Origin: an uncultured Acidobacteriota bacterium | Lineage (GTDB): Bacteria > Acidobacteriota > Thermoanaerobaculia > UBA5066 > DATFVB01 | Assembly (NCBI GenBank): GCA_963813155.1 | Contig: CAWEYG010000003.1 | Coordinates: forward strand, 96,001 to 160,000 | Direction of reading: 5' to 3' | DNA: 64,000 nucleotides | Shown: positions 22,100 through 49,862 of the stretch, in pieces | How the letters are laid out: each line of letters begins with the position of its first letter | How positions within the stretch are numbered: position 1 is the stretch's first letter | Made by a program: the position numbers and the translations under genes | The notes under the pieces: model-generated | The model's input: only the letters and a program-made list of their open reading frames with translations | Database searches by the model: none | What the model was told of the DNA's origin: nothing

Positions 22100-24373
22100 A
22101 TGAGAAAGATCGGCAAGCAGGAAGCCCTCGATTTCCATTCTCGCGGACGCAAGGGGAAAATCGAGGTCGTCGCCACGAAGCCGTGCCGCACCCAGGAAGA
22201 CCTCTCTCTCGCCTACACGCCCGGAGTCGCGGAGCCCTGCCTGGAAATCGAGCAGGATCCCCTCAAGGTCTACGACTACACCGCGAAGGGGAACCTCGTC
22301 GCGGTCGTGTCGAACGGGACCGCCGTCCTCGGCCTCGGCAACATCGGTCCTCTCGCCGGGAAGCCGGTGATGGAGGGAAAGGGCGTCCTGTTCAAGCGTT
22401 TCGCCGACATCGACGTGTTCGACATCGAGCTCGACGCGCCCGACGTGGACGGCTTCGTCGACACCGTGCGCCGCATGGCGCCGACCTTCGGCGGGATCAA
22501 TCTCGAAGATGTGAAATCCCCCGAATGCTTCGAGATCGAAGATCGCCTGAAGAAGCTGCTCGACATCCCGGTGTTCCACGACGACCAGCACGGGACGGCC
22601 ATCATTTCGGCCGCGGCGTTCCTGAACGCCCTCAAGATCGCGGGCAAGAAGATCGAGGACGTGAAGGTCGTCTTCGCGGGCGCGGGCGCCGCCGCGATCG
22701 CCTGCGCGAATCTCTACGTCTCGTACGGCGTCCGGCCGAAGAATCTCCGGCTCTGCGACCGCAGCGGCGTGATCTACAAGGGCCGCAAGGAAGGAATGAA
22801 CCCCTACAAGGAGAAATTTGCGGTCGAGACCTCGGAGCGGACGCTCGCGGAGGCGCTCGTCGGCGCCGACGCGTTCATCGGCGTGTCGGCGAAGGGCGTC
22901 GTCACGGGCGACATGCTCCGCGAGATGAAAGAGAGCCCGATCGTCTTCGCGATGGCGAACCCCGATCCGGAAATCACGCCCGAGGACGCCATGATCGCCC
23001 GTCCCGACGTGATCATGGCGACCGGCCGGAGCGATTACCCGAACCAGGTCAACAACGTGCTCGGCTTTCCGTACATCTTTCGCGGCGCCCTGGACGTCCG
23101 CGCCCGCGAGATCAACGAGGCGATGAAGCGCGCCGCGTCCGAGGCGCTCGCCGCGCTCGCGATGGAAGACGTCCCCGACTCCGTGCTCAAGGCGTACGGC
23201 GGACAGTCGTTTCGCTTCGGGCGCGACTACCTGATTCCGAAACCGTTCGACTACCGGGTCCTCTTCTGGGTGGCGCCGGCTGTCGCGCGGGCCGCGATGG
23301 AAACCGGCGTCGCGAGGGTGCAGATCGACCTCGACGCGTATCGCCGGAAGCTCGAAATCCTCCTCTCGCGGACCCGGGAGGTCATGCGCGGAGTGAGGGA
23401 GCAGGCGAGGGCCGGGCCCAAACGCATCGTCTTCCCGGAGGGCGAGCATCCCAAGATCCTGCGCGCCGCGAAGATCCTCGCGGAAGCGGGCCTGTGCCGG
23501 CCGATCCTGATCGCCCGGCAGGAACAGGTCGCCTCAAAGATCAAGGAGCTGGGCATTCCGGCCGGCAAGATCGAGTTCGTCGAGATCTCGAAGTTCCCCC
23601 GCCTGGAGGAATACGCGAATCGCCTCGAAAGCCTCCGCCGCCGCCGCGGCATGACGAAAGAAGACGCGCGCCGCGAGGTGACGCACCGGAACGTCTTCGG
23701 GTCGCTCATGGTCGAGATGGGGGAGGCCGACGGCCTGATTTCCGGCCTGACGCAGTCGTACTCGGACACGATCCGCCCCGCCCTGCAGATCGTCGGCGTC
23801 GCGCCGGGAGTCAAGCGGGTCTGCGGCCTCTACATCCTGATCCTGAAAGATCGCGTTTTCTTCTTCGCGGACACGACGGTCAACATCAATCCGAGCGCCG
23901 AGGACCTCGCCGAGATCGCCCTGCTCTCCTCGGAGGCCGCCCGCCGGTTCGGGTTCGAGCCGCGCGTCGCGATGATCTCGTTCTCGAACTTCGGCTCGAA
24001 CCGGCACGCTCGGGCCGACCGGGTTCGCGACGCGGTCGACATCGTGAAGACGCTTCGCCCCGATCTGCCGATCGACGGCGAGATGCAGGCCGACACGGCG
24101 GTGATGCCGGAATTCCTCGAGGACACGTTTCCGTGGGCGACTGTCCGCAAGCCGAACGTACTCATCTTTCCCGACCTCGAATCGGCGAACGCGGCCTACA
24201 AGCTCGTCTGGCGCCTCGCGAACGCCGAGGCCGTCGGGCCCGTCCTCATGGGCATGCGCAAGCCGGTCCACGTGCTCCAGCGGGGCGTCGAAGTCACCGA
24301 CATCGTCAACATGGCCGCGATCGCGGTCGTCGACGCGCAGCGGAACGAGGAATTGCAGCGCAAGCTCCTGTGA
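22100..24373 (+). CDS. maeB: NADP-dependent malic enzyme with C-terminal PTA-like domain
   Basis: LSLAYTPGVA, GKPVMEGK, FHDDQHGT and TGRSDYPNQVNN motifs; PTA-like IVFPEGE and DGEMQAD. Confidence 0.95.
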   Translation: MRKIGKQEALDFHSRGRKGKIEVVATKPCRTQEDLSLAYTPGVAEPCLEIEQDPLKVYDYTAKGNLVAVVSNGTAVLGLGNIGPLAGKPVMEGKGVLFKRFADIDVFDIELDAPDVDGFVDTVRRMAPTFGGINLEDVKSPECFEIEDRLKKLLDIPVFHDDQHGTAIISAAAFLNALKIAGKKIEDVKVVFAGAGAAAIACANLYVSYGVRPKNLRLCDRSGVIYKGRKEGMNPYKEKFAVETSERTLAEALVGADAFIGVSAKGVVTGDMLREMKESPIVFAMANPDPEITPEDAMIARPDVIMATGRSDYPNQVNNVLGFPYIFRGALDVRAREINEAMKRAASEALAALAMEDVPDSVLKAYGGQSFRFGRDYLIPKPFDYRVLFWVAPAVARAAMETGVARVQIDLDAYRRKLEILLSRTREVMRGVREQARAGPKRIVFPEGEHPKILRAAKILAEAGLCRPILIARQEQVASKIKELGIPAGKIEFVEISKFPRLEEYANRLESLRRRRGMTKEDARREVTHRNVFGSLMVEMGEADGLISGLTQSYSDTIRPALQIVGVAPGVKRVCGLYILILKDRVFFFADTTVNINPSAEDLAEIALLSSEAARRFGFEPRVAMISFSNFGSNRHARADRVRDAVDIVKTLRPDLPIDGEMQADTAVMPEFLEDTFPWATVRKPNVLIFPDLESANAAYKLVWRLANAEAVGPVLMGMRKPVHVLQRGVEVTDIVNMAAIAVVDAQRNEELQRKLL

Positions 24374-42584: not shown

Positions 42585-45351
42585 TCCGGACCGGCACGGA
42601 CCGCCGCGGTGCTCGCGGCTATGCTCGCGGCCCTGGCCGGGACGCCTCGGCGCGGAGCCGATCCATCTGGCCTATACGAAACGTGTCCTCGACAACGGGT
42701 TGACGGTCATCCTCCACGAGGACCACCGCCTCCCCCTCGCGGCCGTCAACATCCTGTATCGCGTGGGCTCGTCGAGGGAGAGGCCCGGGCGCAGCGGGTT
42801 CGCCCACCTGTTCGAGCACCTCATGTTCACCGGCTCCAGCCACGTCGCGAACGGCGTGTTCGACCGTCTGCTCGAGGCCGCGGGCGGAGAGAACAACGCG
42901 AACACGGAAACGGAGGACACGGACTATTACGAGCTGCTGCCGTCGAACGCCCTCGAGCTGCCGCTCTACCTCGACGCGGACCGGATGGCGACGCTCGGCG
43001 AGTCGATCACGCAGGAGAAGTTCGAGACCCAGCGGTCGGTCGTCGAGAACGAGAGGCGCGAAGAGATCGACAACCGGCCGTACGGCACGACGCGAAGAGA
43101 CGCTCCTCGCGAACCTGTTTCCTCCGGGGCATCCGTACCATCTTCCCGTCGTCGGGACGATGAAGGACCTCGACGCCGCGACTCTCAAGGACGTGCGGGA
43201 GTTCTTCGCGGAGTTCTACACGCCGAACGACGCGATCCTGTCGATTGCGGGGGACTTCGACTCGGCCCGGGTCGGAGCGCTCGTCGACAGGTACTTCGGA
43301 TCGATCCCGAGAGGCCCCGACTCCGCCCCCTTGCGGCCGGCCGCCGTGCGGGTCCCGCGGGAAATTCGCCTTCGGGTCGAGGACCGCGTGGAGCTTCCCC
43401 GGCTCACGCTCGCATGGGTGACCCCCGCCGAGCTCCAGCCCGGGGACGCCGCGCTCGACGCGCTTTCCCTCGTGCTCAGCGGAGACAAGACGTCCCGGTT
43501 GTACAGGAAGCTCGTCTACGACCTGCAGATCGCGCAGGACGTGTCCGCCCAGCAGCAGTCCCGCTCTCTCGCGTCGATCTTCACGATCTCCGTCACCGCG
43601 CGCGCGGGTCATTCCCTCGCGGAGATCGAGCCGGTCGTCGAGCGCGAGCTCGAGCGCCTGCGGTCCGAGCCGCCGTCGGCCGAGGAGCTGCAGCGCGCCC
43701 GCGCCGGCATCGAGGCGAGCTTCCTTCACCGGCTCCTGAGAGGTCGGCGGAATCGCGAGCCAGCTCGCGGTCTACGAGGCGACGCGGGCGAGCCGGATTT
43801 CTTTCAGAAGGACCTCGACCGTTACGAGTCGCTGAAGCCGGAGGACGTGCGCGACGCCGCGCGCCTGCTCGGTGACGATCACCGCGTCGTGCTGTCCGTC
43901 GTTCCCCGCGGCAAACTCGACCTCGCTTCGTGGGAAATGCCGCGGGAGCGCGGGAAAGCGGCGGCGGTTCCGGCCGTCGACTGGGCGTCAGTCCCGACCA
44001 CCGGCTCGCCGAAGGACGTGCGGCTTCCTCCGGTTCGCCGGACGAAGCTCAAGAACGGGCTCTCGGTCTGGGTCCTCGAGCAGCACGGGCTTCCCGTCGT
44101 CCGAGCCGACCTCATCGTCCCTTCGGGATCCGCCGACGACCCGGGGCGGAAGCCGGCCTCGCGCGCATGACCGCGGCGATGCTTTCGCGCGGGACCGATT
44201 CGCGCGACGCGCTGGAGATCTCGGGACAGGCGAGCCTCCTCGGCGCCGAGCTGGGCGCCGGCGCGGGGTGGGATTCGTCGTTTGTTTCGCTCGACGTCCC
44301 GGCGGCGGGATGGGGCAAGGGGCTCGACTTGCTGGCCGACGTCGCGCTCCACCCCAGCTTCCGGGAGACCGAGCTGCAACGCGCGAAAAAAGAGATCGAC
44401 GGCGCGATTCAGCAGGCGCTCTCGGAGCCCGACGCGGTGGCGGGAGCGGTCTTCGAGCGGGCGCTCTACGGCCGGACCCATCCGTACGGGCGTCCGGGCG
44501 AAGGCGTTCTCCGTTCGATCGGGAGGATCGGGACGCGCGACCTGCGGTCGTTCTACCGGCGAGCGTTCGACCCCCGCCGCTCCGTCCTGATCGTCTCCGG
44601 CGACGTGCGGGCCGACGCGGCGATCGAGGAGATCGAGAAGCGATTCGGAACGTGGAACGGGGAAGGCTCCGCCGCGGCGCCGCTTCCGAAACCGCCGGGA
44701 CCCGCTCGCCGCCTCGTTCTCGTCGACAAGCCGGGCGCGGCCCAGTCCGTCGTGCAGGTCGGAAAGGTCGGCGTCGCGCGCTCCACGCCCGACTATTTCG
44801 CGATCGAAGTGATGAACACCGTACTCGGCGGTCCGTTCACGTCGCGGCTGAACCAGAACCTGCGCGAGGCGCACGGCTACGCGTACGGCGCGTTCTCCGG
44901 CTTCGAGATGCGGCGGGGCGCCGGCCCGTTCGTCGCGGAAGCGGCGGTGCAGACCGATTCCACCGCGCCGGCTCTCCGGGAGATGCTCTCGGAGCTGACA
45001 CGGATCGCGTCGGAAGAGGTCTCCGCCACGGAGCTTCAAAAGGCGAAGAACTACCTCGCGCTGTCGTTTCCGCAGACGCTCGAGACCCCCGGCGATCTCG
45101 CTCGCCGCCTCGCGGCGGGCTTCGTGTACGGCCTGCCGGACGACTACGACGATCGTTTCGTCGCGAGCGTCGAGGCGGTGACCGCGGAGGACGTGTTCCG
45201 GGTCGCGAAGGAAACGCTCGGCGGCGATTTTACGATCGTCGTCGTCGGCGACGTCGCGAAGATCCGCCCGGAAATCGAGAAGCTCAAGCTGGGGACGATC
45301 GAGCTCGCGAAGTACGACCCCGCGACGGGAAACGTCGTCCCGGGGAAGTGA
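42581..45351 (+). CDS. M16 (pitrilysin/insulinase) zinc peptidase with several apparent frameshifts
   Basis: GFAHLFEHLMF (HxxEH) motif, LDNGLTV, second-half LKNGLSV and SRLNQNLREAHGYAYG. Frame breaks near 42593, 42646, 43093 and 44156, plus a compensating pair at ~43740-43785. Confidence 0.8.
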
Positions 45352-45357
45352 CCGAAG

Positions 45358-45473
45358 GTCATTCCCGCGAACGCGGAAATCGCTCGGGGGTGGGCGCAGG
45401 GAGTCCTAAATCGAGCATTCGCGCATTCAAACAATTTCCCCCTTTGTCGCGCCGAAGCTTTAGCGAAGGCGGA
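45358..45473. repeat. REP-like palindromic remnants
   Basis: GTCATTCCCGCGAACGCGGAAATC (45358-45381) and CGCCGAAGCTTTAGCGAAGGCG (45450-45471) are imperfect palindromes resembling dispersed REP-type repeats. Confidence 0.4.
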
Positions 45474-45550
45474 TGTCCCCTTTTCGCGGGTCGCGCGATG
45501 TGCAGGGGAGAGGGGTATGATTTTCGAACAAATGCCCATCGATGTCGCCC

Positions 45551-45672
45551 GCCTAACGCGGATCGTCTTAGGCCGACGATTCGGTTGCCAGGTTGTTGGC
45601 TCTTGGAGAGTGGGAGGCCGTTTTGTTCCGCCTATCGCGACAGACCCGCTTCCGCCTAATCACATGCTGGGC
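45551..45672 (+). other. attC site 1 (degenerate)
   Basis: R'' GCCTAAC (45551); inner TTAGGCCGA/TCCGCCTAA inverted pair. R' GCTGGGC(GTTTC) at 45666 is 11/12 complementary to GAAACGCCCAAC at the end of the following cassette. Confidence 0.55.
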
Positions 45673-45689
45673 GTTTCAGCGAGCATTTC

Positions 45690-46061
45690 GTGAACGACGC
45701 CGTTCTCGAAATGTCCTTGGTACTCGTTGTGTCGGTCGCTGCCTACTTAGGTTGGGTCGCCTGTCGGTCAGAGCGTCCCGTCTGGACTGCTCGCAGTGTC
45801 GTCCTATCGTTGCTGACCGTAATCAATGTCCTGTGCGCGGCAGTGTCATTCCTGGGAATCTATGCTCTGGCGAACTTTGCAGCTGGCCTCAAAGCGTCGT
45901 GGTCAGATTGTCTCGTCGGTGGTAGCGTTCTGGCCGTCGTAGCTACCGTACTCGCCCTTCGAAGGCCGCGGCGTGACCTAATCGTGGCCCTAAACGGGGC
46001 GTTGATCGGGCTCTTCGGTCTAGCGTGGCTGATTCTGATCGCAACGTCGGTCCGCAGATGA
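45690..46061 (+). CDS. Cassette 1: hypothetical 4-TM membrane protein
   Basis: Hydrophobic ORF between attC1 and attC2. Confidence 0.65.
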   Translation: MNDAVLEMSLVLVVSVAAYLGWVACRSERPVWTARSVVLSLLTVINVLCAAVSFLGIYALANFAAGLKASWSDCLVGGSVLAVVATVLALRRPRRDLIVALNGALIGLFGLAWLILIATSVRR

Positions 46062-46080
46062 GCGAGCAGAGGGTCGAAAC

Positions 46081-46156
46081 GCCCAACATGTCGCGGCAGC
46101 GGACTTCAGCCCGCCGCGTTGCGCCGGGCTTCGCCGCTGAGCTCAAGGCGTTACCT
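46081..46156 (+). other. attC site 2
   Basis: GCCCAAC-N8-GCAGCGG...CCGCTGAGC-N7-GTTACCT; inner palindrome AGCCCG/CGGGCT. Confidence 0.82.
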
Positions 46157-46172
46157 GTGCGAGGAGCGTGAG

Positions 46173-46646
46173 TTGTTGCGGCAGAGTTGGAAGCTTCGTT
46201 GGTGGCCCCTACTCTGGTCGATCGCGATGGCCTTCTGTACGACGGTTCTCGGGGTAGGCCTCTGGATGGCAGCGTTGGGGCCCGTTGGCCGTGTTCACGG
46301 CGCGCTCATGTTCGTCACCCTACCATTCGTCACCCTTGGGTTTGCGGTAGGTGAGCTGCCGTCCAGGTCGGCCCTCGGGTCCGGAATCCTTCTAATCGGC
46401 GGGTTCGTTTTCTGGGCCGGCACTTCGTATGCCATTCTTCACTTGGCCAGCGGCCCGGTTAAGAGTGAAAGTGCGCACAGCCAACATCGGTATCTGGACT
46501 CCTCCTGCAAGAGGGCGAAGCGCGGGCTCGGGAAGAGGGTTCGACGGGTTGTGAAGAGCGCAGTTGGTGAGTCGAGGATGTCAGGTCGAGACAGCGATCG
46601 TATCTACGGCCTCTTTGTGGAGTCGCGTTGGCGCTCCGGGCCATGA
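46173..46646 (+). CDS. Cassette 2: hypothetical membrane protein (C-terminus reads into the IS end)
   Basis: GAGGAG RBS at 46161 and TTG start; three hydrophobic helices up to ~46440. Sequence after 46490 is IS-derived. Confidence 0.55.
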   Translation: MLRQSWKLRWWPLLWSIAMAFCTTVLGVGLWMAALGPVGRVHGALMFVTLPFVTLGFAVGELPSRSALGSGILLIGGFVFWAGTSYAILHLASGPVKSESAHSQHRYLDSSCKRAKRGLGKRVRRVVKSAVGESRMSGRDSDRIYGLFVESRWRSGP

Positions 46647-46745
46647 TGGGAGCCGCACACGGGGAGCCAATCATTGACAGCGGCTTCTGAGAGCCACCGA
46701 TGTTGTCGGCTTGTCCCCGTGTCGGTCCGACCGAAACCATCATCG
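46590..46745 (-). ncRNA. Predicted bridge RNA/seekRNA of the IS1111 element
   Basis: Stem ACACGGGGA/TCCCCGTGT encloses a bilateral loop with CAACAUCGGU (=46482-46491) and GCUGUCAAUGA (complement of 47907-47916 with one extra nt). A second loop has CCCAUCAU and AGAUAC, matching the IS ends. Boundaries approximate. Confidence 0.75.
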
Positions 46746-46785
46746 AGATCTGATGCGCGTTCACAGGAAGGTCGTGGTCCTTTCC

Positions 46786-47820
46786 TTAATTGCAGGGGCT
46801 CAGGCTTCGGGGTTCGTAGACAGTGTTTCGTGACCAGACGGCCCAGGCGACGCGAGCGAGCTTGTTGGCAAGGGCGGTGGCGGTGCGGTTGTGACCGCGG
46901 CGTTTCTCGACTTCGAGGGCCCAGGACTGGATGCGATCGGGGTTTTTGGAGCGTTTGGCGGCGAGAAGGACGGATCGCGCTCCGTGGATGAGAAGAGTTC
47001 GCAGGTAGGAGTCGCCGCGTTTGGTAATGGCGCCCAGATGGCGATTGTTACCGCTGGAGAACTCTTTGGGGACCAGGCCGAGGAAGCAAGAGAGCCGCCG
47101 GCTCGAGCGGAAGCGGGAGGCCGAGCCGACAAAACCGAGCAAGGCGGTGGAAGTCAGGAGCCCGATGCCGGGGATCGATTGAAGGCTTTTCGCTGCGTCA
47201 ATGTCCTTCGAGATCACCGCGAGCCGGCGATCCCCCATCCGAATGTTTTCCGTAAGCTTTCGGACCTCGTCGCAGAAGGCCAGAAGGATCGGATGAAGGT
47301 CTTTGGGTATGGCATCGGAGGCCAGCGCCTCGGAGACGGCGGGCAGGACGTATCGAGATCCCTGCGGGATGGTGACGCCGAGCTCGCGCAGGATGCCGCG
47401 CAGGATATTCAACCGAGCCGTGCGTGTGGTGATCCACGCGGAGCGCGAAGAGTGGAGAGCGGTCAGGACATGCTGGCCCACTGTTTTGACCGGCACGGGG
47501 AGGATCTGGTTGTTGCGCCCGGCTTCCAGCAAAGCATCGGCGTCGGCACGGTCGGTCTTGTTGCCGAGGCGATAACGGCGGACGTGGTGAGGAGGAAGAA
47601 GCACGACCTCATGGCCGAGGCCCTGGATCTCTCTTGCCCAGTGGTGTGCCGATCCGCAGGCTTCCATCAGAACCTTAGCCGAGGGTTGGTTAGAGAAGAA
47701 AGAGATCATCTGGCTTCTGGTCAGCCGGCGTCTCTGGCAGACGCGCCCCGGTTGCTTCGAGACGGCGATTTCGAAGACGGACTTCGCAAGATCAACGGCA
47801 ATGGTCGTAGAATCACTCAC
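46786..47820 (-). CDS. IS110-family DEDD recombinase/transposase
   Basis: IAVDLAK (D), MEACG (E), KTDRADA (D,D), SIPGIG, GLVPKEFSSG (catalytic Ser) and ALANKLAR motifs; AAGGAG RBS. Confidence 0.95.
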   Translation of the reverse strand: MSDSTTIAVDLAKSVFEIAVSKQPGRVCQRRRLTRSQMISFFSNQPSAKVLMEACGSAHHWAREIQGLGHEVVLLPPHHVRRYRLGNKTDRADADALLEAGRNNQILPVPVKTVGQHVLTALHSSRSAWITTRTARLNILRGILRELGVTIPQGSRYVLPAVSEALASDAIPKDLHPILLAFCDEVRKLTENIRMGDRRLAVISKDIDAAKSLQSIPGIGLLTSTALLGFVGSASRFRSSRRLSCFLGLVPKEFSSGNNRHLGAITKRGDSYLRTLLIHGARSVLLAAKRSKNPDRIQSWALEVEKRRGHNRTATALANKLARVAWAVWSRNTVYEPRSLSPCN

Positions 47821-47976
47821 GGACTTCTCCTTTCATGAAGCTGACCGATCAACCCGGAACAGCCTGGCACAACGATGCCGCACCATGCGGGGAGGAGTCC
47901 ATCTCATCATTGCAGCGGGCGGCGGGCCTGCGGATTGCCGTAGCTAAAGCCGGGTCGTCGAGCACCTGAGCAAGAG

Positions 47977-48714
47977 ATGTCAGTTCGTCAGTGGCTCTCT
48001 CGAATACCCCGAAGCGCACGGATTGGCGCGGGCGTGACATGTGCAATTGTTCTTCTGCCGCTTGGGGCATTTCTCATGTACGCGGGGTTGGCTATTGGCA
48101 ATGATTTGGCAGACAGGGGGCGATCAACGGGAATTCTCGGAATGCAGGAGCTCTGGCCGTTCCTCGGCCTCACACTCTATGCCCTCGTGATCGTCGCGAC
48201 GCCGGTGTCTGTCGGCGGCCTGATCGGCTGGGGGATCGATCGAGCGTTCAAGGCCGCGCGAGGCAGGGAGACGCGTAAGCAGAAACGTGGCCGGTGTCCG
48301 GTGTGCGCCCACGAATTTGACTATTACCTCGTGCATGACGGCTTCAGCGACACGGCACACGCATACTGCGATCGCTGTGGCGCGACGGCCCTTCTGGATA
48401 TGTGGTTCCCACGCATTCCACCCGCCGCGGATCTAAGGGTTCACCAAGCCATCTCAAAGGCGGTCGAGCCATGGCTGTCGCCGTGCCAGTGCGGAGGCAC
48501 CTTTCGCGCTGACGCCTCTCCTCGGTGTCCAACGTGTGGCGCACCGTTGGGGGCCGAAGAATGCAGAGGTTTTATCGAGCGCAATGCCGAAGGAACAAAG
48601 AAGGGGTGGCGGTGGCAGGGCAAATGGGTGGCAACCTACGCGATCGTCGTGGCGAACCGTGTCGTCTATGACAATTGGATTACCGAGAGCGTGGCACATG
48701 GCTCGAAGGCATAA
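47977..48714 (+). CDS. Cassette 3: 2-TM N-terminus fused to a Cys-rich (CxxC x3, CxC) putative zinc-binding domain
   Basis: CPVC, CDRC, CQC and CPTC motifs. The TAA stop lies inside R'' of attC4. Confidence 0.65.
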   Translation: MSVRQWLSRIPRSARIGAGVTCAIVLLPLGAFLMYAGLAIGNDLADRGRSTGILGMQELWPFLGLTLYALVIVATPVSVGGLIGWGIDRAFKAARGRETRKQKRGRCPVCAHEFDYYLVHDGFSDTAHAYCDRCGATALLDMWFPRIPPAADLRVHQAISKAVEPWLSPCQCGGTFRADASPRCPTCGAPLGAEECRGFIERNAEGTKKGWRWQGKWVATYAIVVANRVVYDNWITESVAHGSKA

Positions 48715-48769
48715 CACCGGCGTGCAGCGGGTTTCGCTACGCTCGCCGCTGATGCGCAAGTCGTTAGGC
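48709..48769 (+). other. attC site 4 (canonical)
   Basis: GCATAAC-N8-GCAGCGG...CCGCTGATGC...GTTAGGC, 61 bp. Confidence 0.9.
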
Positions 48770-48809
48770 AGTCAACGCAGGTCCAAACAGCTGAAAAGGA
48801 GTGCGCCCC

Positions 48810-49187
48810 ATGAAGCATAACGATCTCTTGAGTTTGACGTCGATACTCTCCGTGCTTCTGCTTGCCCTGCATATTTCGCAGGACATCGTCTTCGGGTTCG
48901 ACCGCGCAGGGCTCAATCATCTTGTCGGCGTTGCGATCTTGGTCGTCGTTGTCTGCGGCGCCGTGCTGCTCCGAGAACGGCGATTGGGCAAGGTGATCAT
49001 GCTGCTTGGCGGCGTGATGGCCGTCGGGATGCTGCCTCTGCACATGCGGAATGGATTGCGCCCGGAGTTTCTCGAGAAGAGCGGCGCCCTGCTGTTCATC
49101 TGGACGCTCTATGTCCTCGGAGTCATCGGCGCGTTCTCGATTATCCTGGCGATCCAGGCGTTGTTCGCTCGGCGGATCGCTTCGTGA
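48810..49187 (+). CDS. Cassette 4: hypothetical 4-TM membrane protein
   Basis: AAGGAG RBS and ATG 48810; four hydrophobic helices with intramembrane His residues. Confidence 0.72.
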   Translation: MKHNDLLSLTSILSVLLLALHISQDIVFGFDRAGLNHLVGVAILVVVVCGAVLLRERRLGKVIMLLGGVMAVGMLPLHMRNGLRPEFLEKSGALLFIWTLYVLGVIGAFSIILAIQALFARRIAS

Positions 49188-49250
49188 AGAACCGCTTGCA
49201 GCGGACGTCGCGCCTGCGGCCTTGCCGCCCCTGAAGCCGGGCCGTTAGCC
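49183..49250 (+). other. attC site 5 (R'' AAC>AAG variant)
   Basis: CGTGAAG-N8-GCAGCGG...CCCCTGAAGC...GTTAGCC. Confidence 0.75.
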
Positions 49251-49256
49251 CTCTTG

Positions 49257-49862
49257 ATGCATCGTCATCCAGCGTTTCGTTCTCGCCCTGCGCTCGCCCA
49301 GTTCGCCAAGAGTGGTTCATGGGAGACCGCTTTTTCCTTTGATCATCTGTGCGTCCCGACGCAGGCCGCATTGCTGGCGTTTCTCGATTCCACGGACGAA
49401 GTCGCCTTCGAGGTCTTCTTCGGTGATGCCTTCTTTGGCGTGCGCCTCGAAGGCCATGCAAGCCTCGTCGCTCAATTGTCGAGCGCCTGTGTCGAGGCAT
49501 TTTCCAGTTCACTCGATGGCACGACGTTCTTCGAGAGCCTTCAAGACGCTGGTGGCTGGAAAGGCCTTGGTCATACGATTTCATTCACAGAAATTGGCGC
49601 CGTAAACGCCTGGCGCTCCGTGGGCTCATTCCGCATGCCGCCGCCTGACCAGGCGCTACTCCATCTGCAGGAGCTATGGCCGCTCATATCCAGTACGCCA
49701 CTCGCCCACGACATCGACCACAAGAAAGCTCTCGAGTTCGCATATGAGCATCCCGTCAAGCATTGGTTTGCGCTGCCAGTCAGCCGATCCATTGCACCGC
49801 TCACCATTTCACACGCGATGCTCCGGCAGGCTCTTGAATCCGTCCTTCACCGAGAGGGCTAA
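49257..49862 (+). CDS. Cassette 5: hypothetical protein
   Basis: ORF bounded by TTAGCCCTCT (49245) and its exact complement AGAGGGCTAA (49853-49862). Confidence 0.7.
   Translation: MHRHPAFRSRPALAQFAKSGSWETAFSFDHLCVPTQAALLAFLDSTDEVAFEVFFGDAFFGVRLEGHASLVAQLSSACVEAFSSSLDGTTFFESLQDAGGWKGLGHTISFTEIGAVNAWRSVGSFRMPPPDQALLHLQELWPLISSTPLAHDIDHKKALEFAYEHPVKHWFALPVSRSIAPLTISHAMLRQALESVLHREG

What the first reader, a model, noticed from the sequence alone, without database searches (positions are those of the whole stretch)
46482..47918. IS1111 element with a readable RNA guide programmed against an integron attC site
Seen in sequence: on the minus strand the 3' non-coding end reads ACACGGGGACAAGCCGA-CAACAUCGGU-GGCUCUCAGAAGCC-GCUGUCAAUGA-UUGGCUCCCCGUGU (46722-46657). 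This gives an outer stem, a bilateral loop and an inner hairpin. One loop strand is identical, 10/10, to the flank at 46482-46491. The other is complementary to the opposite flank TCATTGCAGC (47907-47916) apart from one extra nt. A G-U pair in the stem works only on the minus strand, which fits co-orientation with the transposase. Established knowledge: IS110/IS1111 recombinases use non-coding bridge/seekRNAs with target- and donor-binding loops, and some IS1111 elements insert into attC sites. Inference: this is a natural RNA-guided recombinase aimed at the R''-L'' arm of attC sites. The class is known; this element and guide may be undescribed.
Basis: partly seen in the sequence, partly recalled or inferred. 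Interest (0 to 1): 0.9.

Follow-up and report, generated by a model that had tools for sequence, protein, structure and literature searches.

The report
RNA-guided insertion sequence in an attC site
This is an intact IS1111-type insertion sequence sitting in an integron attC site, and it carries the guide RNA that aims it there; elements of this kind were described and tested in 2024, so it is a new member, not a new kind.

Summary
Window 46491-47909 (minus strand, 1419 bp) is an IS1111-family insertion sequence with a 344-aa DEDD transposase, sub-terminal inverted repeats and a 295-nt 3' non-coding region. The quoted hairpin (46722-46657) is the target-binding module of a seekRNA/bridge RNA. 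Its 5' loop strand pairs with the right flank and its 3' loop strand matches the left flank.

The structure is kept by compensatory changes across 24 homologues. The loop strands change together with the flanks: 17 distinct 5' strands and 15 distinct 3' strands, with 0 of 20,000 permutations reaching the observed match for either.

The flanks are the two halves of an attC site in a four-site cassette cluster with no integrase nearby. The position and orientation match ISKpn4 and ISPa25. These are also the best plasmid hits (47% identity) and fall in one clade with this element.

IS1111 elements that target attC through a seekRNA were shown experimentally by Siddiquee et al. in 2024. This is therefore a new environmental (Acidobacteriota) member of a known kind. 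RNA expression and activity were not shown here. A shortfall of 1-2 bp at the crossover is unexplained.

The parts
46491..47909 (-). Whole insertion sequence, 1419 bp. The left end reads TGATGAGATGG and the right end reads GTCCAGATA.
   Evidence: The ends were placed by aligning four copies and by analogy with the published ISPa25 insertion point. The same parse holds exactly for relative L091, whose two flanks add up to a neighbouring intact attC.
46786..47820 (-). Transposase gene, 344 aa, GTG start preceded by AAAGGAG.
   Evidence: Pfam DEDD_Tnp_IS110 (6.2e-11) and Transposase_20 (1.9e-22). NCBIfam NF033542 'IS110 family RNA-guided transposase' scores 278.3 bits against a cut-off of 140. 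The PDB hit is the IS621 transposase 8wt6, E 6.8e-10. The translation holds GLVPKEFSSG, which fits the GL-P----SG motif quoted.
47891..47902 (-). Left sub-terminal inverted repeat ATGGACTCCTCC, 7 nt in from the left end.
   Evidence: It is complementary to the right arm at 11 of 12 positions.
46494..46505 (-). Right sub-terminal inverted repeat GGAGGAGTCCAG, 3 nt in from the right end.
46594..46722 (-). Guide RNA (seekRNA/bridge RNA) with two stem-loop-stem modules. The conserved block is 46590-46745.
   Evidence: Alignment of 24 homologues and its consensus structure. This block is 151/156 identical to L007, while the CDS is 81% and the rest of the non-coding region 55% identical. Covariance model R2 hits this site at 134.7 bits.
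46696..46705 (-). Target-binding loop, 5' strand, CAACAUCGGU. It is complementary to the minus-strand right junction A|CCGATGTTG.
   Evidence: Covariation with right flanks is shown.
46671..46681 (-). Target-binding loop, 3' strand, GCUG-U-CAA-UGA. It matches the minus-strand left junction GCTGCAA|TGA with one bulged U.
   Evidence: Covariation with left flanks is shown.
46643..46653 (-). Donor-binding loop, 5' strand, GCUCCCAUCAU. It is complementary to the left IS end (A)TGATGAGA, with one mismatch.
   Evidence: It covaries with the left end: relatives whose end begins GGATGAA carry UUCAUCCU.
46597..46607 (-). Donor-binding loop, 3' strand, GUAGAUACGAU. It matches the right IS end AGATA plus the following C.
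   Evidence: It covaries with the right end: AGAUAU with AGATAT in L033, AUAUAC with ATATAC in ISPa25, and ACACAU with ACACAT in L056.
46479..46490 (+). R'' half of the interrupted attC site: AGCCAAC followed by ATCGG.
   Evidence: It matches the start of the attC consensus RYYYAAC ATCGGC.
47910..47963 (+). L''-to-R' part of the interrupted attC site: TTGCAGCGG ... GTCGAGC. It is degenerate.
   Evidence: attC covariance model R1 gives 28.1 bits, E 1.1e-05, with three non-standard pairs; real homology starts at 47910. The first 42 nt match 14 attC sites of G001 at 82-88%. A contig of run X1 carries these 49 nt inside an intact attC.
46081..46156 (+). Neighbouring attC site.
   Evidence: R1, 34.9 bits, E 1.4e-07.
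48709..48769 (+). Neighbouring attC site: GCATAAC ... GTTAGGC. It overlaps the stop codon of ORF 47977-48714.
   Evidence: R1, 52.0 bits. Sequence, ORF.
49183..49250 (+). Neighbouring attC site.
   Evidence: R1, 53.1 bits.

Best explanation
Window 46491-47909 is a complete IS1111-family insertion sequence of the attC-targeting group. It sits in the R''-L'' arm of an attC site in a small cassette cluster that has no integrase nearby. Its transposase gene points against the cassettes.

The 3' non-coding region encodes a two-module guide RNA. In module 1 (46722-46657) the 5' strand of the internal loop pairs with one DNA strand of the right target half. The 3' strand pairs with the other DNA strand of the left target half. 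In module 2 (46656-46594) the two loop strands do the same with the left and right ends of the element.

By analogy with tested relatives, the transposase binds this RNA. The RNA then brings the joined IS ends of a circular intermediate together with a matching attC sequence, and the enzyme exchanges strands there. The same target matches would also be needed to excise the element from its present flanks.

Shown here: the anatomy, the conserved structure, and the covariation of guides with flanks and with ends. Inferred: transcription, RNA-protein binding, the circular intermediate, and present activity of this copy.
For: Protein. The transposase matches Pfam DEDD_Tnp_IS110 and Transposase_20, NCBIfam NF033542 at 278 bits and the IS621 transposase in the PDB.

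Anatomy. It has sub-terminal repeats and a long downstream non-coding region, which Siddiquee et al. describe as typical of IS1111.

RNA structure. The consensus of 24 homologues has 20 pairs, 11 of them with compensatory changes. 94.6% of cells are paired, against 28.5-41.9% when the partners are slid. There are 53 double-change cells against 14.1 +/- 2.8 in shuffles, 0 of 500 reaching the observed value. The RNA block is 97% identical to L007 where the CDS is 81%.

Guide-target covariation. In the close clade, 17 distinct 5' strands score 116 matches against their own right flank, versus 93.1 +/- 4.3 for shuffled pairings (0 of 20,000). 15 distinct 3' strands score 72 versus 43.3 +/- 5.1 (0 of 20,000). 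A looser test on 20 elements, including distant ones, gave 0 and 14 of 10,000. Examples: L035 GACUGAGCCU with flank GGCTCGGTC; L029 UAACACGCGU with CGCTTGTTA; L101 UACCCCUCCU with AGGGGGTA, and its CGGCAC with GGGGCAC.

Donor-loop covariation.

attC target. All copies of this lineage lie in attC-like repeats. The window holds 4 attC hits. The genome has an integron integrase next to an array of the same attC type.

Kinship. The best plasmid hits are ISPa25, ISPa21 and ISKpn4. They have the same orientation to the cassette genes and the same position after the AAC of R''. One clade with 0.996 support holds them all.

Published experiments on ISKpn4 and ISPst6, and a seekRNA predicted for ISPa25.
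Against: No RNA data exist for this sequence (one search listed no RNA holder), so transcription is not shown. No sigma-70-like promoter was found inside the integrated element (0 sites).

The element is single-copy in its genome, which is 90.8% complete in 23 contigs.

Rfam 15 gave no match at E up to 1, so no curated family backs the RNA.

The two flanks add up to 1-2 nt less than any intact attC found. None of the 52 regex hits has the short form.

The interrupted attC is degenerate: its R' reads GTC, not GTT, and three pairs are non-standard.

The permutation tests do not correct for relatedness of the elements. In 6 of 15 elements the 3' strand scored only 3-4 of 6 with my simple scoring. 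In most relatives the last three guide letters read CGA where the junction reads TGA.
Confidence: 0.88

Rival explanations
1. The anatomy is as described, but this copy is an immobile relic: a once-active element stranded in a decaying attC site, with a guide that no longer works.
For: There is one copy in the genome by DNA and by RNA model. The host attC is degenerate. No promoter-like site lies inside the element. The flanks fall 1 nt short of the common attC form.
Against: The reading frame is open over 344 aa. The DEDD and SG regions align with IS621. Both sub-terminal repeats and both ends are identical to those of relatives (15/15 at the right end). The RNA block is 151/156 identical to a relative whose CDS has diverged to 81%. 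Close variants occur at other attC sites in four soil metagenome runs.
Confidence: 0.2
2. The transposase recognises the folded attC structure by itself, as the integron integrase does. The hairpin would then be a terminator or regulatory element whose likeness to the flanks is incidental.
For: attC sites are structured and nearly all targets in the clade are attC sites. The MFE fold lets parts of the two loop strands pair with each other.
Against: The loop strands follow sequence differences between attC classes. L101 and L035, nested in the clade, carry guides that match flanks which are not attC-like. Distant IS1111 elements with unrelated targets show matches at the same RNA positions. No T-run follows the hairpin. 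Published work shows the RNA is essential and reprogrammable in ISEc11.
Confidence: 0.04
3. The non-coding region merely carries a captured piece of an attC site, which would explain the likeness to the flanks without any guide function.
For: Both loop strands resemble the R''-L'' arm of the local attC family.
Against: The two strands match opposite DNA strands. They are separated by a conserved hairpin, so they are not a contiguous copy. They also include letters of the IS ends. The same layout holds in elements with non-attC targets. The attC covariance model R1 found no hit inside the non-coding region.
Confidence: 0.02

Closest known systems
ISPa25 (IS1111 family, attC-targeting; seen here as plasmid locus L086)
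   Same: It is the best plasmid hit, at 46.8% identity over 98% of the protein. Its sub-terminal repeat ATGGACTCCTCCC is almost identical, and its left end begins TGATGGA as ours begins TGATGAG. Its RNA aligns over both modules. Its transposase points against the cassette genes, and its right end faces the 3' end of the upstream cassette. Its published target places the insertion point at the same geometry in front of GTT.
   Different: Half of the protein differs. Its 3' guide strand has no bulged letter. Its flanks add up exactly to the published target, while ours fall 1-2 nt short. Its host is a clinical class 1 integron, ours a chromosomal cassette cluster of a soil Acidobacteriota genome. 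According to its seekRNA was predicted, not purified.
ISKpn4 and ISPst6 (IS1111-attC group) with their seekRNAs
   Same: ISKpn4 shares 47.3% identity. The attC position and orientation are the same. The RNA layout is the same, with the top-strand match 5' of the bottom-strand match. Their seekRNAs of 82-86 nt were purified with the transposase.
   Different: Their sub-terminal repeats (GGACTCTCCCC) and end letters differ. They are aimed at the class 1 type attC sequence. Their function was shown experimentally; for this element it was not.
IS621 bridge RNA (IS110 family)
   Same: It has two internal loops, one for the target and one for the donor, and each loop reads both DNA strands. Its recombinase is homologous to ours.
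   Different: Its RNA lies upstream of the gene and the order of the strand matches is reversed. It has no sub-terminal repeats. Its shared CT core is duplicated at both junctions (this point is recalled, together with the table). No duplicated core is seen at this element's junctions.
ISEc11 / ISXne4 (IS1111 family)
   Same: This is a published case of natural retargeting: the loop strands change while the stems stay. It parallels the guide changes seen here between attC classes and in L101 and L035.
   Different: Their targets are short linear sequences, not attC sites. They are only distant relatives.

Membership tests
IS1111 family (IS110 superfamily) | DEDD (RuvC-like) N-terminal domain plus a C-terminal PF02371 domain with the GL-P----S/T-G motif; length 330-350 aa. 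| tested here: met
   Pfam hits and NCBIfam NF033542. The protein is 344 aa and holds GLVPKEFSSG. The motif and length range are quoted. The SG aligns with the SG of IS621. The N-terminal part of that PDB alignment is weak on its own.
IS1111 family (IS110 superfamily) | Sub-terminal inverted repeats. | tested here: met
   ATGGACTCCTCC at 47902-47891 and GGAGGAGTCCAG at 46505-46494 are complementary at 11 of 12 positions. They lie 7 and 3 nt from the ends.
IS1111 family (IS110 superfamily) | The longer non-coding region lies downstream of the transposase gene. | tested here: met
   295 nt downstream (46785-46491) against 89 nt upstream (47909-47821).
IS1111-attC group | Insertion at one fixed position and orientation in attC sites. 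| tested here: met
   All 5 copies with both junctions (the window and 4 in G001/G005) and 4 further single junctions from runs X2, X3 and X5 lie at the same place in attC-like repeats. The position and orientation match ISKpn4 and ISPa25. The defining papers (Tetu and Holmes 2008; Post and Hall 2009) were not readable; only their titles were seen.
IS1111-attC group | The transposase clusters with ISPa21, ISKpn4, ISPst6 and ISPa25. | tested here: met
   These are the top plasmid hits. A clade of 18 of 33 proteins with support 0.996 holds them, this element and all 15 attC-inserted relatives. 15 other IS1111 elements fall outside it (FastTree, midpoint root). ISPst6 was not fetched.
seekRNA / bridge RNA | An internal loop whose two strands match opposite DNA strands of the two target halves. 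| tested here: met
seekRNA / bridge RNA | The guide strands covary with the target among homologues while the stems are kept. | tested here: met
   (0 of 20,000 permutations for each strand). Relatedness is not controlled for.
seekRNA / bridge RNA | A second loop matches the donor (IS) ends. | tested here: met
   The loop at 46653-46643 and 46607-46597 matches the left and right ends. It covaries with end variants in L033, the GGATGAA subgroup, ISPa25 and L056. No statistic was computed for it.
seekRNA / bridge RNA | The RNA is made, binds the transposase and is needed for movement. | not testable with these tools
   No RNA run holds the sequence. Experiments exist only for relatives.
Integron attC site (the target) | Inverse core sites RYYYAAC and GTTRRRY flanking an imperfect palindrome, at the 3' end of cassette ORFs in an array. 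| tested here: inconclusive
   The family is clear: 34 intact sites align and the model hits 4 sites in the window. The interrupted site itself is degenerate, with R'' AGCCAAC, R' GTCGAGC, 28.1 bits and three non-standard pairs. The nearest integrase is about 150 kb away, so the cluster lacks an integrase.

The most novel reading that the evidence does not exclude
This lineage may not recombine in the simple conservative way assumed for bridge and seekRNA recombinases. Its two target guides abut directly (CAA | CCGATG), whereas the common host attC carries one more base there. All seven right junctions seen are 1 or 2 bp short of any intact attC found. Either the enzyme loses bases at a crossover whose central letters differ between donor and target, or the guide geometry (which includes a conserved bulged U) imposes a strict spacing rule that restricts the element to rare short attC variants. 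Either way, spacing and bulges would act as a natural specificity layer beyond base pairing.
Probability: 0.15. Interest if true: 0.55.

Novelty: new member of a known kind. Interest (0 to 1): 0.3.

Why it matters
For the biology of integrons, the element splits an attC site by 1.4 kb. That should stop the site from folding and fuse two cassettes into one immobile unit. The same RNA was found in 15 of 61 genomes of the order, so such elements may commonly shape chromosomal cassette arrays in soil Acidobacteriota.

For RNA-guided recombinases, the clade offers a natural series of guide and target pairs: 17 and 15 distinct strands, plus two lineages that have left attC sites. These show which guide positions tolerate mismatch, wobble or a bulge. 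None of this changes the known mechanism.

Tried and rejected
Rfam scan of 45500-49000 at E up to 1: no match.

Empty site in the own genome: a fuzzy search for the two flanks side by side found none.

Empty site in G001: only the attC part of the window's flanks matched, and the cassettes are not shared.

A generic attC finder based on core sites and folding was useless in this GC-rich window, giving hundreds of hits. It was replaced by a covariance model built from 34 real sites.

A genome-wide fuzzy search hit the 60 s limit, so its list is partial. It was replaced by a regex scan. A few of that scan's 52 hits are probably not attC sites.

Sequencing runs: no RNA holder was listed. Only contigs of soil metagenomes were laid. 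They gave no circle junction and no skip of the whole element. Parts without cover mean nothing.

A shared duplicated core was rejected as the reading of the junctions. I tried AT, GA, GAT and YGA. Distant relatives L056, L057 and L052 do carry TGA on both sides. For this lineage and for L091, however, simple insertion fits best, and L091's flanks equal an intact neighbour exactly.

The junction promoter (a conserved TTG just inside the right repeat, facing a TGATGAGAT in the left end) was read by eye. It stays an inference; the linear element has no promoter-like site.

The first tree run built the tree but failed on a label list, so its tree was not seen. It was redone with FastTree, leaving out L049 (partial ORF), L093, L096, L098 and L066 (no ORF or no hit) and L061.

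Tetu and Holmes 2008 is not held. The last one (Acidobacteri + attC + IS110) found one unrelated preprint. ISfinder cannot be reached, so 'undescribed' is not established.
Full report
**What is there.** On the minus strand, window 46491-47909 is a 1419-bp insertion sequence. It holds the following parts:
- an 89-nt leader;
- a 344-aa transposase gene (46786-47820, GTG start behind AAAGGAG);
- a 295-nt 3' non-coding region;
- sub-terminal inverted repeats: ATGGACTCCTCC, 7 nt from the left end, and GGAGGAGTCCAG, 3 nt from the right end.

The protein matches Pfam DEDD_Tnp_IS110 and Transposase_20. It scores 278 bits on NCBIfam NF033542, 'IS110 family RNA-guided transposase', whose cut-off is 140. 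In the PDB it matches the IS621 transposase (8wt6, E 6.8e-10). It carries GLVPKEFSSG, which fits the GL-P----SG motif that Siddiquee et al. give for IS1111 transposases (section read). Its length, its repeats and its downstream non-coding region are the features they use to tell IS1111 from IS110.

**The RNA.** The quoted hairpin is real. The MFE fold of the whole non-coding region recovers it (z -3.05, 0 of 100 shuffles as stable).

I aligned the region with 23 homologues. They were three Acidobacteriota relatives at 84-85% protein identity, metagenome relatives at 53-66%, ISPa25, ISPa21, ISKpn4 and distant IS1111 elements.

The consensus has two modules:
- Module 2 follows at once (46656-46594) with the same plan.

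11 of 20 pairs show compensatory changes. 94.6% of cells are paired, against 28.5-41.9% when partners are slid by 1-3 columns. There are 53 double-change cells against 14.1 +/- 2.8 in shuffles (0 of 500). The helices of module 2 hardly vary, so they are neither supported nor contradicted by covariation.

Between the window and L007 the RNA block is 151/156 identical. The CDS is 81% identical and the non-coding stretch behind the RNA is 55% identical. Rfam has no family that matches.

**What the loops read.** In module 1 the 5' strand CAACAUCGGU is complementary to the minus-strand right junction A|CCGATGTTG. The 3' strand GCUG-U-CAA-UGA matches the left junction GCTGCAA|TGA with one bulged U. 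The 10-mer is far above chance.

In module 2 the 5' strand is complementary to the left IS end (TGATGAGA, one mismatch). The 3' strand matches the right IS end (AGATA plus C). In each loop, therefore, the 5' strand reads the top strand of the right half-site and the 3' strand reads the bottom strand of the left half-site. This is the order reported for IS1111 seekRNAs and the reverse of IS110.

Model R2, built from the alignment, found the RNA once in the own genome. It found it in 15 of 61 genomes of the same order, G000 included (13 of 57 high-quality genomes), with up to six copies per genome.

I extracted guides and junctions from stored loci and ran a permutation test.
- 5' strand: 17 distinct strands with a right junction score 116 matches against their own flank, versus 93.1 +/- 4.3 for shuffled pairings (0 of 20,000).
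- 3' strand: 15 distinct strands score 72 versus 43.3 +/- 5.1 (0 of 20,000).

One of the 17 (L094) has a tandem right end, so its flank was mis-read; it was kept and counts against the result. Six of the 15 3' strands scored only 3-4 of 6.

A looser search over 330-360 nt regions in 20 elements gave 0 and 14 of 10,000.

The three letters next to the insertion point track between guide and flank: CAA, CAT, CAG, ATG, ACG and CAC. The tests do not correct for relatedness.

The donor loop also follows end variants:
- AGAUAU with AGATAT in L033;
- AUAUAC with ATATAC in ISPa25;
- UUCAUCCU with GGATGAA in one subgroup.

**The target.** The own genome has an integron integrase (TIGR02249, two pieces of 238 and 210 bits in two frames, at G000:C3:295169-296117). 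Next to it lies an array of sites of one type: RYYYAAC ATCGGC TTGCAGCGG ... CCGCTGAAGCCGGGTC GTTRRRY.

A covariance model of 34 such sites from G000 and G001 hits the window four times on the + strand: 46081-46156, 47897-47963, 48709-48769 and 49183-49250. Each hit follows a small + strand ORF in a low-GC island. This is a cassette cluster about 150 kb from the integrase.

The element splits the second site between AACATCGG and TTGCAGCGG. This site is degenerate (R' GTCGAGC, three non-standard pairs).

All four copies in the related genome, and the extra junctions in runs X2, X3 and X5, sit at the same place in attC repeats.

**Relation to known elements.** The best hits among 72,556 plasmids are ISPa25 (46.8%), ISPa21 (47.9%) and ISKpn4 (47.3%). 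In the plasmid loci, ISPa25 and ISKpn4 point against the cassette genes, with their right end facing the upstream cassette, as here. Their published insertion points lie at the same geometry in front of GTT (table of a 2026 review, passages read).

In a FastTree tree of 33 transposases, one clade with support 0.996 holds these three, this element and all 15 attC-inserted relatives. 15 IS1111 elements with other targets lie outside it.

Siddiquee et al. 2024 showed that ISKpn4 and ISPst6 transposases purify with an 82-86 nt RNA from this region. That RNA holds the two target matches, and a seekRNA predicted for ISPa25 holds the same ones. They also showed that such an RNA is essential and reprogrammable in ISEc11 (passages and sections 6, 10 and 14 read). 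The finding is therefore a new member of a described group.

**What does not fit.** I parsed the element as for ISPa25. The same parse holds exactly for L091, whose two flanks equal an intact neighbour. With this parse, the flanks of this lineage are GCTGCAA | CCGATGTTGG (window, L007, a fourth G001 copy, run X2) or GCTGCAA | CGATGTTGG (L008, L009, run X5).

Intact sites read GCTGCAAGCC(G/A)ATGTT in 27 of 52 regex hits, and none has the shorter forms. Run X1 holds an intact site whose 49 nt are identical to window 47910-47958. It carries the extra base, and its R'' side differs from the window's.

I could not decide between three explanations: loss of bases at the crossover, choice of rare short sites, or a recombinant or mis-joined flank.

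**Limits.**
- No RNA data exist.
- No promoter-like site lies in the linear element.
- A junction promoter is inferred only from conserved letters.
- This copy's activity is unknown.

Noticed in passing
window 45200-49800; attC hits at 46081-46156, 47910-47963, 48709-48769 and 49183-49250: A low-GC island (0.58-0.63 against about 0.68-0.72 around it) lies between a peptidase M16 gene and a biotin carboxylase gene. It holds four attC sites and small + strand ORFs with no Pfam family, two of which look like membrane proteins. It is a cassette cluster with no integrase nearby.
   Followed up: partly
G000:C3:295169-296117 (loci L002, L003): The genome's integron integrase matches TIGR02249 in two pieces that lie in different frames (positions 1-192 and 186-315). 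This suggests a frameshift or a sequencing error. The main attC array lies on its 3' side, at C3:296729-303958.
   Followed up: no
run X1 contig laid on window 47910-47958: This contig holds an intact attC site whose 49 nt are identical to the window's left-flank half. Its R'' side and upstream sequence differ from the window's. It may be a recombinant attC, a paralogue, or a sign that the assembly joined two insertion sites across the IS.
   Followed up: partly
L101 (G054) and L034/L035 (metagenome): Two lineages nested in the attC-targeting clade have guide strands and flanks that are not attC-like: UACCCC with GGGGGTA, and GACUGAGCC with GGCTCGGTC. They look like cases of natural retargeting.
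   Followed up: partly
L094 (G056), right end: The 15-nt right end GGAGGAGTCCAGATA stands twice in tandem before the flank.
   Followed up: no
L084:416-479 and one further site in G001: Two of the 52 attC hits read GCTGCAATGAAATGTT. Their left part plus TGA matches the 3' guide strand fully. Their partner arm has changed to keep pairing, so they are a real attC class, not a footprint.
   Followed up: no
L087 (plasmid record NZ_OL468819.1): This ISPa21 copy lies between a dndB gene and a hypothetical gene, not in a cassette array. ATACGAATTG stands on both sides of it.
   Followed up: no
L031 right end: After GGAGTCCAG the usual ATA and any match to the guide are missing. The end is truncated or rearranged.
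   Followed up: no
window 22339-22348 (+): A third exact copy of the 10-mer CAACATCGGT lies far from the element and inside a long ORF. It is probably chance.
   Followed up: no
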